Shown piece after piece: positions 26,602-35,100 of a stretch of 64,000 nt of DNA. The translations under genes were made by a program, and so were the position numbers. The stretch is taken from contig OX597824.1 of assembly GCA_951406725.2 (NCBI GenBank), forward strand, positions 93,930,001 to 93,994,000, given 5' to 3'. Below the pieces are notes generated by a model. The model was given only the letters and a program-made list of their open reading frames with translations, did no database searches and was not told where the DNA came from. Within the stretch, counting starts at the first letter, position 1, and every line of letters begins with the position of its first letter. Source of the DNA: Octopus vulgaris. Taxonomy: Eukaryota.

Positions 26602-26723
26602 CTTTATTTTAAGCAGCAGAAAATTCAACAAAATCTGCTGCTTAAAATAAAGCATATTACTCTACCACTGGTATTTGAGTACTCTTTTTTCCACCTTGTT
26701 TCACATTTATGTGTTTACTCCGG
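26602..26723 (+). mobile_element. Family H element, short fold-back form, in (TA)n
   Basis: 19 bp arms 26602-26620 and 26634-26652, then the same 71 bp tail. Confidence 0.9.
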
Positions 26724-27412
26724 TATATATATATATATATATATATATATATATATATATATATATATATATATATATATACATATATACATATATATAT
26801 ATATATATATATATATATATATACATACATATACTTTTATAGATAGATAGATACATATATACATACATACATACATACATACATACATACATACATACAT
26901 ACATACATACATACATACATACATACATACATACATACATACATAATAATTACCTACATAAATATAGATATGAATAATGAATTGTTGTGGACTTTGATTA
27001 ATGAAATGTACTTTAACTGCGACAATATAATTTTGAGAGGTGAGATGGTGTGAAGGAAAGGGGGGTGAATAGAATAGGTGTGAAGATGAAGGAATTGAGA
27101 GGTGATAGAGGGAGAAAGAGAGGAAGAGTGAGAGAGAGAGAGAGACGGCAATAAAATGAGCGATAGGAATGAAGTGTAACATTGAGAAAGAGACGAGGGG
27201 AGAGGGAAGAGTAAGATGGCAGTTTTATAGAGGCAGATAGAGGAAGTAAGTGAGGGAGGGAGAGAGAGAGGGAGAGAGAGCGCGACGAAGACATAAAATA
27301 CATTCTCAATGAGAAAAAATATTTGCCTGGGTGATATGTATAAATATATAAGCGCGTGGATGTATGTGTGTGCGTGCATGTCTGTGTGCGTATATATATA
27401 AACATGAATATA

Positions 27413-27822
27413 CTCTTTTACTCTTTTACTTGTTTCAGTCATTTGGCCATGCTGGAGCACTGCGTTTAGTCGGGCACATCGACCCCAGGACTTATTCTTT
27501 GTAAGCCTAGTACTTATTCTATCGGTCTCTTTTGCCGAACCGCTAAGTTACGGGGACGTAAACACCCCATCATCGGTTGTCAAGCGATGTTGGGGGGACA
27601 AACACAGACACACAAACATATACAAACACATACATACATATATATATATACATATACATATATAGGACGGGCTTCTTTCAGATTCCGTCTATTAAATCCA
27701 CTCACAAGGCTTTGATTGGCCCGAGGTTATAGTAGAAGACACTTGCCCAAGGTGCCATGCAGTAGGACTGAACCCGGAACCATGTAGTTCGTAAGCAAGC
27801 TACTTACCAGACAGGCCACTGC
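27413..27822 (-). mobile_element. SINE family A, near full length
   Basis: Reverse complement of the family A sequence with (ctctttta)n tail. Confidence 0.92.
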
Positions 27823-28379
27823 TATATATATATATAGAAACATACATACTTACAAATGAATGTAAATACAATACTAATTCTCACACACATTACTCGTATA
27901 TATTCACATAAAACATAAATACGAACAATAGGACTCAACGAGTTCGCGTTAGTTTCGCGATGAACACCGAAGCCAAGGTACGAAAGATGGGCAACAACAA
28001 CAACTGCAACAGCAGCAGCGGCAACAACAATAGCAATAACAACGCCATTCTGATTCGCATTACACAAAGCGCCATAAAAAAATAGAATATAATTGCCAGC
28101 AGCGAGAGAAGAGCAAAGAGCAAATATGTAACAATAACTGCAAATCAATGAAACTATGCTAAGATGTGCTTAGAGATGATGGCTCCATCTTGTATGGCCT
28201 ATTGTGAGGCGAATAACCCACAGAAACATATGTAGCACACGTTCATATATATATATGCTCTTTTGCCCCCTGACTGGATATATACTCAGTTTTTCAAGCA
28301 CGTGTATGTATAAGCGCGCATGTGTGTGTATGTGTGCGTGTGCACGTGTGTTTATATATATATATATATATATATATAA

Positions 28380-28573
28380 TCAGTCACCATGATAGATCGG
28401 TAGCCACTACACACATTTTTTTTCTTGCCTTGTTTTTTCTGTGTCCCTTTCTGTAGAAGAGCGTAGGCTCGAAACGTAAAAGGCTTTTTTCAATTCCTGG
28501 GCGTTATACTAATACATTTGTTTGTTTTATACACCACCTGTCTTCGTCTTTTGTTTTTTTCGTGAACTCTCCC
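28380..28573 (+). mobile_element. Family E retroposon with hammerhead-like fold at 28446-28483
   Basis: ccttt-CUGUAGA-a-gagc(gtag)gctc-GAAA-CGUA-aaagg; flanked by (TA)n on both sides; three copies in the window. Confidence 0.8.
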
Positions 28574-28592
28574 TATATATATATATATATAT

Positions 28593-28829
28593 ATCACCGT
28601 GACCGACCACGCTATCGGATGTTGCTACATATCGCTGGTCACAATGCGCTTCACATTGCTTTTTAGCCTTGAAATGACGCCACCCCGCTGGCTAAGCGAG
28701 CAGGCCTACAGTAGAAAGAGTGAGAGAAAGTTGTGGTAAAAGAGTACAGTAGGGACCGCCACCACCCCACTGCAGGAGCATCGTGAAGCTGTTTAGGTGT
28801 TTTCGCTCAATAAACACTCACAACGCCCG
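28593..28829 (-). mobile_element. SINE family D, 5'-truncated (tail type 2)
   Basis: Shares the agaaagagtgagagaaagttgtgg...gtgttttcgctcaataaacactcacaacgcccgg body with 8364; tail homologous to 44780-44879. Confidence 0.8.
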
Positions 28830-31800: not shown

Positions 31801-31868
31801 CCGCCCACACAGACACATATGTATATATATATATATATATATATATATATATATATATATATATATAA

Positions 31869-32457
31869 AAATTTATATATGAGGATAATATCGATATTTA
31901 AGTGTCGAAATTATCAAGTGGCCAGCATGAAGGAAGTACCTTACAAAGGTAAAAAAATTTTTAACAATTAAAAATGAGGGTGTCTAAAAGACACCAACAT
32001 GCCGAAATAGCAGTCGAAACTCTGACTATAAAACCACGTTAAATGTTCATATCGCACCATGAGGTAAAGCGGAGGGACAAAACATACAAGCAAAAATTAT
32101 TGAATAATTCAAGATCCAAGGATTTCTGGTTCTGCTTTAGATAAGCTTTACCGTCATCAATTGAATATATCAAGGGTACATAAATACAGATATATATATG
32201 CACAGCAAACGATATACTTACATATACGAGCGTCGCACATACATCCATATGCACGTATGAACACAGCCAGTTTGAATCGCCCGCCAAATCACCGCATAAG
32301 TACGACATGGTTAAAATAAGCACCGCAGTGAATATAGTAACGAATTATATAAATTTATATATGAGGATAATATCGATATTTAAGTGTCGAAATTATCAAT
32401 TGGCCAGCATGAAAGAAATACCTTACAAAGGTAAAAAAATTTTTAACAATTAAAAAT
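31869..32457. repeat. 107 bp direct repeats (31869-31975 and 32351-32457) around a 375 bp spacer, bounded by (TA)n
   Basis: Three substitutions between the copies. Confidence 0.9.
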
Positions 32458-32861
32458 ATATATATATATATATATATATATATATATATATATATATATG
32501 CGTGTGGGGATGTATTTATATATAGGTAGATATACCGCATGCATGGAGTGATTATGGATGGAACGCCTTAGAACGCATATCTGTTCTGTCGGGGTTAAAC
32601 AAGGACAATAGACAATAATCACATTATAAGATAGTTTAATGTTGTTCTCGTTCTTTTGTTGACGTTGTTGCTGTTGTGGTGGTGGTGGCGGTGGTGGTGG
32701 TGGTGGTGGTGGTGGTGCTGCTGGTGTTGACTATCCTCAGGAACGATCAGATTCAGCAGAATCAATTCCAGTCAATTACAATCCAATCTTGACCATCCCC
32801 AATCCCAATACGTCGATGAAACCTAATACGACATTATCGAAAGTATGCAAATAGACGGAGG

Positions 32862-33212
32862 TTGCATGGCACCTTGGGCGAGTGTCTTCTATTATAGCCA
32901 CGGGCTGACCAAAGTCCTGTGAGTAGATTCGGTATACGGAAACCGAAAGAAGCCCGTCGTGTGTGTATGTGTGCCTCTGTGTTTGTGTGTCTGTATCAAT
33001 GTAGAGCACCAATCATCGCGTGACAACCGATGTTGGTGTGTTTACGTCCCCCCTAAATTAGCGGTTCCGCATTAAAAAAAACTGATGAAATAAGTACCAG
33101 ACTTTAAGAAAAAATGTACTGGGGTCGATTCATTCGACTAATAATTCTTTTCAAGGCGGTGCCCCAGCATGGCCGCAGTCTAATGACTGAAACAGTTGAT
33201 GAAAGAGAAAGC
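32862..33212 (+). mobile_element. SINE family A, 5'-truncated and diverged
   Basis: tggcaccttgggcgagtgtcttct...gaagcccgtcg...ggggtcgattcattcgact...ccagcatggccgcagtc. Confidence 0.85.
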
Positions 33213-34961
33213 AAACGAATACGACTTTCGATTAAATGGCTGATGGACTTTAACAGTCAACGAGAAAACACCAACCGACAATCTCGCCAGCCAGACTGCC
33301 CGCCAGCCAACCGGCCAGCCAACCAACCTGCCAGCCAGTAGGCCAGCCTGCCGGCCACTTGGTTTTCTTTTCTTTTTGTCGTTGTTCTTTTTTCCTTTTA
33401 TATATTTTCCCGTTTGCTTCCTGTCTGTTCTTCTTTGGTTGATTTCTTCAAAAGAATCGATGTCCACGTTGGTTGACAATGAAAGAAAGCGAGAGAAAGA
33501 GAGAGAGAAGAATCTGTGTCAAGCTATACTGTTACAAAGAAATGTGCCACCATTTTCTTCTCCAAGTATTACAATAGAAAGAGAAATAAGTACGCTTCTT
33601 TTTTTTCCAAAGAATAAAGAAGAACGAAGTGGAGGAGGAGGAGGAGGAGGAGGAGGAGGAGGAGGGGGAAAGAGAGAAGTGGGGCAGACGTAGGAGGTGA
33701 AAAAAAATATTTGGCTTGATGGCGTGCGACGCTTGACAATGAGTTTGTGTAGCAAGCAAAATGAGAATATAATAGAAATATACCGACCCTTCACGGCACA
33801 CATATGTATATATATATGTATATATATATATATATATATATATATATATATATATATATATATATATATAAATATATATATATACGCATATATATATGAA
33901 CATATATATATATATACATATACATATATATACACATAAACATACACACATATAAATGAAAACAAATATATGCCTTTGCATATATATATATATATAAACA
34001 CATGCGTGTATGTGTAGAAGTATGTGAGTATATGTGTGCGTAAGTTTATGTATTTATATATATATATGTGAGTGTGTGTGTGTATTTATATATATATACA
34101 TATTTATATATATATATATATGTTCGTAAGAAGTGCAGGCAGAGATGTGTGTACAAATATGAATAGATAATAGTCCCCCCGTATCCAATATACCATAACA
34201 CATAATGCTAACAATTAATCGTTACCCTACTTACTGGAGACGCCGCATGTGCCTATGTGTATATCCATATACAGATGTGAATCAAGATTCCTATATACGT
34301 GTGGGAATACATAAATACATGCTTATATATGCATGATATATTTATATATATATATATATATATATATGATAGCTGCTTGTCCGTTTCTTGTATGGCGGCA
34401 CGTAACAATAGCGAACGAGGAAATGATACGACATATCCGCATACAAACTTACATACATGCATACATACACGGTATCAAACACACGGATATTTGTACGCAC
34501 CTATATATATAATATATATAGGCCAATGTGAGCGAATGTGAGCCAATGTGTGTGTGTGTGTAAACTAAATAATATCGTCATTACCTGTTCGTCTCTATAT
34601 TTTCATCTGCCGTTTTCTCTACACGTAAGAGATCTCTATTGATAATCTACCTTCCTATTATTTTGTCTGCCATTATATGGTCGCAAATCAGAGTAAGACC
34701 GTGTGTCCGTGTGTCTGTCTCTCTGTCTATTTAAATGTGCGTGTTTCGTTTCTATGTTGCGTATCAGTGTGTAAACGTACGTTTGATAGTTCAAAAATGG
34801 TTGAACTATATTTTTACCTGGTTTGTTAGCTCTATTGTTGAGCAGCAGCGTTCGTATGCGCGCTTCGTCGTAACATCCATTGTGTCTGTTATACTGCCAT
34901 ATTTGATGAGTGTGCGTATATGTATAAATGCTGCATAAACACATATACGCATATATATATA

Positions 34962-35100
34962 CTTTATTTAAAGCAGCAGAAAATTCAGAGTAACAGATTT
35001 TGTTGAATTTTCTGCTGCTTTAAATAAAGCATATTACTCTACCACTGGTATTTGAGTACTCTTTTTTCCACCTTGTTTCACATTTATGTGTTTACTCCGG
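34962..35100 (+). mobile_element. Family H element, intermediate fold-back form, in (TA)n
   Basis: 26 bp perfect arms 34962-34987 and 35004-35029, 71 bp tail to ccgg at 35100. Confidence 0.9.

What the first reader, a model, noticed from the sequence alone, without database searches (positions are those of the whole stretch)
26602..35100. Family H fold-backs appear to be made at each insertion: fixed outer end, variable turn point, microhomology
Seen: in all three copies the inverted arm starts at the complement of aataaag, 71 bp from the 3' end, but arm length is 85, 19 or 26 bp. The turns in the short copies show microhomology (tctg at 26634-26637, tca at 34985-34987). The 34962 copy has the variant tttaaag/ctttaaa in both arms, while the other two have ttttaag/cttaaaa in both arms. 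Inference: both arms derive from one template in one event by template switching, and the fixed end next to an AATAAA may mark an RNA end or second priming site.
Basis: partly seen in the sequence, partly recalled or inferred. Interest (0 to 1): 0.7.

Follow-up and report, generated by a model that had tools for sequence, protein, structure and literature searches.

The report
Head-to-head Penelope retrotransposon insertion stubs
These fold-backs are clipped, back-to-back ends of a Penelope-type jumping gene found thousands of times in TA repeats of this animal genome; each was likely made by two separate copying events from one source rather than by DNA folding back (a layout already described), and most arms stop sharply at one position that may mark where the RNA begins.

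Summary
Family H is the hammerhead-bearing end of a Hydra-clade Penelope-like retroelement: intact 711-aa ORFs, a telomerase-like predicted fold and 5,814 exact tail-end matches. An inverted, 5'-truncated copy with a tail on one side only is the published layout of these elements, and the scan met it before in other families of this genome. In 138 copies chosen by their tail end, 99 have an inverted arm: the outer end is fixed (96 of 99), turns vary (55 types in 69 clean junctions) with modest microhomology and some hot spots, and both arms share one source haplotype. So 'made at each insertion, from one source' holds. Fold-back template switching does not: in 28 of 99 the inverted arm holds sequence the other arm lacks, and tail-less ends occur alone. 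Two target-primed starts 71 nt apart, with cDNA ends joined head to head, fit better and match in-vitro work on a related element. Not found in print: arms stop sharply 84 nt in (about 570 versus 46 one base further), often followed by an extra C, as if running off a capped RNA 5' end. No raw RNA reads were available to test this.

The parts
25874..25917 (.). (TA)n target tract at the tailed end of copy A
25918..25988 (-). Copy A: 71-nt tail; in full-length elements it is the start of the leader before the ORF
25989..26079 (-). Copy A: tailed arm, last 91 nt of the element before the AATAAAG end
26022..26059 (-). Predicted minimal type I hammerhead ribozyme in the tailed arm of copy A
   Evidence: sequence; layout matches Hydra-2_aMil in PMC8557442 File S2; activity untested; no Rfam match
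26080..26164 (+). Copy A: tail-less inverted arm, 85 nt, blunt junction at 26079/26080
26094..26131 (+). Predicted hammerhead ribozyme in the tail-less arm of copy A; predicted cut after 26127
26484..26601 (.). (TA)n target tract at the tail-less end of copy B
26602..26637 (-). Copy B: tail-less inverted arm, 36 nt including the 4-nt overlap; longer than its partner
26634..26652 (+). Copy B: tailed arm, 19 nt to the AATAAAG end
26653..26723 (+). Copy B: 71-nt tail, followed by (TA)n at 26724-26781
34962..34987 (-). Copy C: tail-less inverted arm, 26 nt including the 3-nt overlap
34985..35029 (+). Copy C: tailed arm, 45 nt, starts inside hammerhead stem III
35030..35100 (+). Copy C: 71-nt tail, followed by (TA)n at 35101-35168

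Best explanation
The three fold-backs are 5'-truncated, head-to-head insertions of a Hydra-clade Penelope-like retroelement in (TA)n, and each was likely made by two target-primed reverse transcription events from one source, one starting at the tail end and one 71 nt upstream at the AATAAAG end, whose cDNA ends were then probably joined through short, often imperfect homology. Shown: identity of the element, its unit order (hammerhead, AATAAAG, tail, leader, ORF, 3' UTR, hammerhead), two fixed outer ends, independent truncation of the two arms, same source haplotype in both arms, excess microhomology, and a sharp limit of arm length at -84. Inferred: nicks on both target strands by the element's endonuclease, priming helped by TA-like bases next to both start sites (CATAT and TCTA), joining by host repair. 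Inferred with less certainty (about 0.6): the -84 limit is the capped 5' end of the RNA template, so most short copies are run-off products. Whether one RNA molecule or two from the same locus serve as template is open.
For: Element: 711-aa intact ORFs in 8 of 20 fetched regions, all Hydra motifs present and conserved in 105 aligned sequences, predicted fold pLDDT 92.9 with telomerase TERT as best match, tail continues into leader and ORF. Two ends: 5,814 and 4,400 exact matches; outer end fixed in 96 of 99; tail-less ends without partner: 7 short solo cases among 20, and ORF-bearing copies ending tail-less. Independent arms: inverted arm longer by over 10 nt in 28 of 99, shorter in 16, partner inside the tail in 8. 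One source: 75 of 5,641 columns differ within copies (1.3%) against 4.0% between, site -9 concordant in 83 of 84; in 11 of 12 long pairs (500 or more columns) no outside arm is closer than the partner and 11 of 12 share a variant seen at no other sampled locus. Microhomology mean 1.55 vs 0.74 +/- 0.12 in 69 clean junctions. In vitro, a Poseidon-clade protein cuts and extends both strands and starts at two internal sites that bound the tail (PMC11167929). Limit at -84: 49 of 75 arms reaching 80 nt end at 80-84, 4 of 26 at 85-89; 847 vs 46 genome matches; C follows in 25 of 42 non-target junction rows against 24% expected.
Against: No intermediate or RNA was seen; all is read from old insertions. 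17 of 69 clean junctions have no exact microhomology and 30 of 99 carry extra bases. 39 of 138 tail ends had no inverted arm by my parser. The parser sought the AATAAAG end, which biases the fixed-end count. Recurrent junctions exceed chance (26 coincident pairs vs 1.4; 229 exact CTAG hairpins), so some inheritance from short masters is not excluded. In 6 of 21 long pairs an outside arm is closer than the partner, and arm identity could partly come from later gene conversion, although only 1 of 27 private variants in short copies is in both arms. For the RNA-end reading: 0 of 20 copies that read from the leader back past -75 stop at 75-84, so the ordinary mRNA does not seem to start there; the extra C before pure TA flanks (4 of 100 rows) is about as frequent, relative to plain joins, as one stray C at another end, so that test was inconclusive.
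Confidence: 0.8

Rival explanations
1. One cDNA folds back or switches template onto itself, making a hairpin; asymmetric deletion of the palindrome centre later gives unequal arms.
For: Arms share a haplotype; 55 of 99 copies have arms within 10 nt of each other; perfect CTAG hairpins occur 229 times; long palindromes are unstable (established knowledge).
Against: Needs a separate reason to stop exactly 71 nt short; tail-less ends occur alone; kilobase arms persist side by side with clean junctions; random central deletion would not leave a one-base cliff at -84 in both arms; near-equal arms follow from the shared -84 limit.
Confidence: 0.08
2. The short palindromes are a non-autonomous family copied whole from a few fold-back masters.
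For: 8 junction types hold 22 of 69 copies; one (84/71) recurs with no exact microhomology.
Against: 55 types in 69; the same junction occurs in different subfamily backgrounds and as mirror images with the tail on either side; left and right arms do not form separate lineages.
Confidence: 0.07
3. Two priming events as in the best explanation, but the limit at -84 is a stall of the reverse transcriptase at a weak hairpin just upstream, not an RNA end (a rival to that step only).
For: A 7-bp hairpin of -4 to -5 kcal/mol lies just upstream in older subfamilies and is lost in the youngest, which supply most read-through copies.
Against: The hairpin is weak; the stop is one base sharp; a C that is not the natural next base (G) follows, twice within one junction in L263; the commonest join pairs two ends reading GAATC (16 of 100 rows) over the natural 2-nt join (3 junctions).
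Confidence: 0.3

Closest known systems
Hydra-clade Penelope-like elements (Craig et al. 2021, PMC8557442; passages, sections 11 and 15, supplement rows and sequence excerpts seen)
   Same: RWK, DKT, CxCX5C linker, CxxC and CxH around the conserved E and N, C-terminal endonuclease region, about 700 aa, (TA)n targets, hammerhead with the layout of Hydra-2_aMil, partial tandems and an inverted 5'-truncated copy with a tail on one side.
   Different: A different family from Hydra-1_Obim (N-terminus and hammerhead differ by eye). Unit about 3.4 kb (most listed Hydra are under 3 kb) and tail 71 nt rather than 30-40. Most copies are stubs under 260 bp with a sharp limit at -84, not described in what I read.
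Poseidon element of Anolis, PAc (Frangieh et al. 2024, PMC11167929; parts 1-2 of 4 of the text and passages seen)
   Same: Two internal start sites bound the tail; both target strands are cut and extended; AT-rich target; uncut RNA is the main template (here no pile-up of arm ends at the predicted hammerhead cut, -37).
   Different: Other clade; there the tail lies inside the ORF, here in the leader; that paper does not treat inverted insertions or the RNA 5' end.
Penelope of Drosophila virilis (Schostak et al. 2008, PMC2377424; passages seen)
   Same: Tandem copies flanked by inverted repeats of variable size; internal promoter and transcription start in the pseudo-LTR upstream of the 34-bp tail repeat.
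   Different: Other clade; has an intron in the leader, none seen here.
LINE-1 twin priming (recalled, not read)
   Same: Second target strand primes on the RNA, giving an inversion joined by microhomology.
   Different: In L1 the second primer lands at variable places and the pieces hardly overlap; here it is fixed and both arms copy the same stretch.

Membership tests
Endonuclease-bearing Penelope-like elements | Single ORF with a telomerase-like reverse transcriptase | tested here: met
   711-aa ORF with YRDD; best fold match TERT 3du5, E 4e-10. Pfam and PDB sequence searches gave no match.
Endonuclease-bearing Penelope-like elements | C-terminal GIY-YIG endonuclease | tested here: inconclusive
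   VVY...YTG with invariant Y, Y, G and downstream E and N; one homologue (P0004) passes Pfam GIY-YIG, the query itself does not; the whole-protein fold search listed only polymerases.
Endonuclease-bearing Penelope-like elements | Pseudo-LTRs from partial tandems, inverted 5'-truncated copy, tail at one end | tested here: met
   against PMC8557442 Fig. 2 legend
Endonuclease-bearing Penelope-like elements | Hammerhead ribozyme motif in the pseudo-LTR, sense strand | tested here: met
   Core and stems read in the sequence, same layout as Hydra-2_aMil; stem II loop stays GNRA across subfamilies. Rfam gave no match; cleavage untested.
Hydra clade | RWK and DKT motifs | tested here: met
   residues 37-39 and 113-115 (definition)
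Hydra clade | CxCX5C linker; CxxC and CxH around conserved E and N; no internal CCHH | tested here: met
   C562, C564, C570; C667, C670; C695, H697 invariant in 105 sequences; no C between VVY and YTG
Hydra clade | Insertion into (TA)n | tested here: met
   TA-rich flank at 97 of 99 tail-less ends; 73 of 94 tail hits in sample 1 loci followed by TATATATA
Hydra clade | Placement in the Hydra clade of an RT tree | not tested
   Reference proteins were seen only as excerpts in the supplement and compared by eye
Non-LTR retrozymes | Non-coding tandem monomer with a hammerhead, no ORF | tested here: not met
   The repeat is the end of an ORF-bearing element; no short tandem arrays among the 138 sampled ends

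The most novel reading that the evidence does not exclude
Most copies record run-off from the capped 5' end of an RNA that starts 84 nt before the AATAAAG site, and both arms are copied from one RNA molecule: the enzyme primed at the tail end displaces the cDNA primed 71 nt upstream, and the two ends then anneal. Long tandem copies would come from a second, multi-unit or circular, template pool. This would give a genomic read-out of how Penelope-like elements make inverted insertions and of where their RNA starts.
Probability: 0.4. Interest if true: 0.62.

Novelty: new member of a known kind. Interest (0 to 1): 0.4.

Why it matters
How Penelope-like elements form tandem and inverted insertions is named as an open question in PMC8557442 (section 15). 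This family has thousands of copies and young intact ORFs, so it offers both the statistics and an enzyme for a direct test. The layout itself is known. What it adds is that both arms come from one source yet neither copies the other, and a one-base limit with a possible cap mark that predicts a transcription start.

Tried and rejected
Rfam: only hairpin-driven microRNA matches below threshold, no hammerhead. Pfam and PDB sequence searches: nothing for the ORF. RNA: no RNA holder listed on record; 23 runs, all contigs, which cannot show starts or strand; not used as evidence. Neptune clade, my first guess: rejected on motifs. L049 as a tandem junction: its continuation is unique flank. Hammerhead cut (-37) as the template end: no pile-up there. 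A Drosophila-type initiator at -90: not conserved across subfamilies; the YYANWYY-like match at -84 rests on a recalled consensus. Extra C before pure TA flanks: inconclusive. The 46 loci were picked by likeness to copy A and were left out of all length and junction tallies; they are included in the arm comparisons. Protein atlas gave no answer. Paper 10.1101/2025.09.17.676864 (abstract and outline only) and 10.64898/2026.07.22.740005 (passages) did not bear on the mechanism.
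Full report
Observation. The numbers 85, 19 and 26 are paired stems; the arms are 85/91, 36/19 and 26/45 nt. All sit in TA tracts. The host is a 2.8-Gb animal genome; earlier notes call it octopus-like, which I did not test.

What it is. The tail end has 5,814 exact matches and the tail-less end next to TATATA has 4,400. Longer copies run into an ORF. After the tail the element goes on into a leader and an ATG (101 such junctions). Eight of 20 regions fetched around such junctions and long copies hold intact 710-711-aa ORFs. 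The unit is about 3.4 kb: tail, 67-nt leader, ORF, about 1.1 kb of 3' UTR, hammerhead, AATAAAG. The protein has RWK, DKT, YRDD, CxCX5C, CxxC and CxH, the marks of the Hydra clade, nearly all invariant in 105 aligned sequences. Its predicted fold (pLDDT 92.9) matches telomerase best. Pfam and PDB sequence searches were blank for it. The hammerhead lies 34-71 nt before the AATAAAG end and has the layout listed for Hydra-2_aMil; Rfam did not detect it. It is not the published Hydra-1_Obim (by eye).

Sample 1: 90 of the first 91 tail hits (one dropped as already held in the biased set). Sample 2: 48 of the 54 hits (2 duplicates dropped, 4 not fetched). Of 138 ends, 99 have an inverted arm by my parser, a lower bound since very short, decayed or three-piece cases were missed. 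The outer end is at AATAAAG in 96 of 99, allowing for TA matching the first tail bases; the parser looked for this end, so the count is biased upward. The 69 clean junctions fall into 55 types. Microhomology averages 1.55 nt against 0.74 for shuffled pairs; 17 have none, 28 have 2 or more; 30 of 99 carry extra bases. Eight types recur (22 copies; 26 coincident pairs vs 1.4 expected) and one, centred on a natural CTAG, has 229 exact copies. These recur in different subfamilies and with the tail on either side, as expected of hot spots.

One source, two syntheses. In 84 copies (including the biased set and two window copies) arms differ at 1.3% within and 4.0% between copies, and left and right arms do not cluster apart. 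Diagnostic sites agree in 83 of 84, 75 of 78 and 58 of 58. Young intact copies differ from one another, yet in 15 of 21 long pairs no outside arm is closer than the partner; in the 12 pairs with 500 or more columns this holds for 11, and 11 share a variant seen nowhere else in the sample. But neither arm contains the other: the tail-less arm is over 10 nt longer in 28 of 99, shorter in 16, and in 8 the partner ends inside the tail. Among 20 tail-less ends with no exact tail match nearby, 7 are short solos, 5 are short with a tailed partner, none is a short pair of two tail-less arms, and 8 are long. So the tail-less end is a start site in its own right. This fits the in vitro finding that a Poseidon protein extends both target strands and starts at two internal sites bounding the tail (PMC11167929), and the published layout (PMC8557442; PMC2377424). 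Two primings is inference; no intermediate was seen.

The limit at -84. Of arms reaching 80 nt, 49 of 75 end at 80-84; of those reaching 85, 4 of 26 end at 85-89. Genome-wide, 847 matches leave the reference right after -84, of which 33 of the first 100 are an older subfamily reading on, giving about 570; only 46 leave after -85. Copy A of the window is one of those 46. After -84, C follows in 27 of 67 rows, and in 25 of 42 non-target rows against 24% expected (hot spots make these rows non-independent). In L263 the end plus C occurs twice in one junction. An untemplated G at full-length L1/SVA 5' ends is attributed to the cap (PMC3287187, passages). Against: before pure TA flanks the extra C is rare (4 of 100 rows) and not clearly above background; 0 of 20 copies that read from the leader back past -75 stop there, so the usual ORF template is not bounded at -84; and older subfamilies have a weak hairpin just upstream that could stall the enzyme. 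I put the RNA-end reading at about 0.6. Available runs were contigs only and could not test it.

Novelty. The class, the layout and the two start sites are in print. Eight literature searches found no account of this family, of a per-insertion haplotype test, or of a run-off limit in Penelope-like elements; Arkhipova 2006, Evgen'ev and Arkhipova 2005, Repbase and Dfam were not available, and supplements of PMC11167929 were not read. PMC4209133 was read in part 1 of 4. The scan noted the same layout and end rule in other families of this genome, but nothing for this sequence, this place or the cap idea. Verdict: a new family of a known kind with a clear mechanistic footprint; interest 0.4.

Noticed in passing
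window 26165-26480 vs 25256-25575: About 320 bp of flanking DNA is repeated in inverted orientation directly at the tail-less end of copy A (91%), between copies A and B; possibly a rearrangement made during insertion.
   Followed up: partly
window 31864-32457: A 112-bp direct repeat 482 bp apart inside TA tracts (96%); looks like a 1.2-mer of a short repeat unit of the kind noted elsewhere in this genome.
   Followed up: no
window 21523, 25619, 57391 (+ strand): Further hammerhead-like core matches by a relaxed pattern, probably ends of other Penelope-like families; no chance control was run.
   Followed up: no
L033:1808-3293 and L037:7918-8376: Pieces of a second, diverged Hydra-type ORF near family H copies.
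   Followed up: no
L168-L177: Most ORF-bearing units end tail-less directly in TA (9 of 11 terminal ends), so their transcripts would end in UA repeats able to pair with the target.
   Followed up: partly
L147, L154, L166, L182, L183: Small tandem or nested units that jump from the leader (about +55 to +110) back to the hammerhead region, giving 130-300-nt repeats; possible seeds of retrozyme-like repeats.
   Followed up: no
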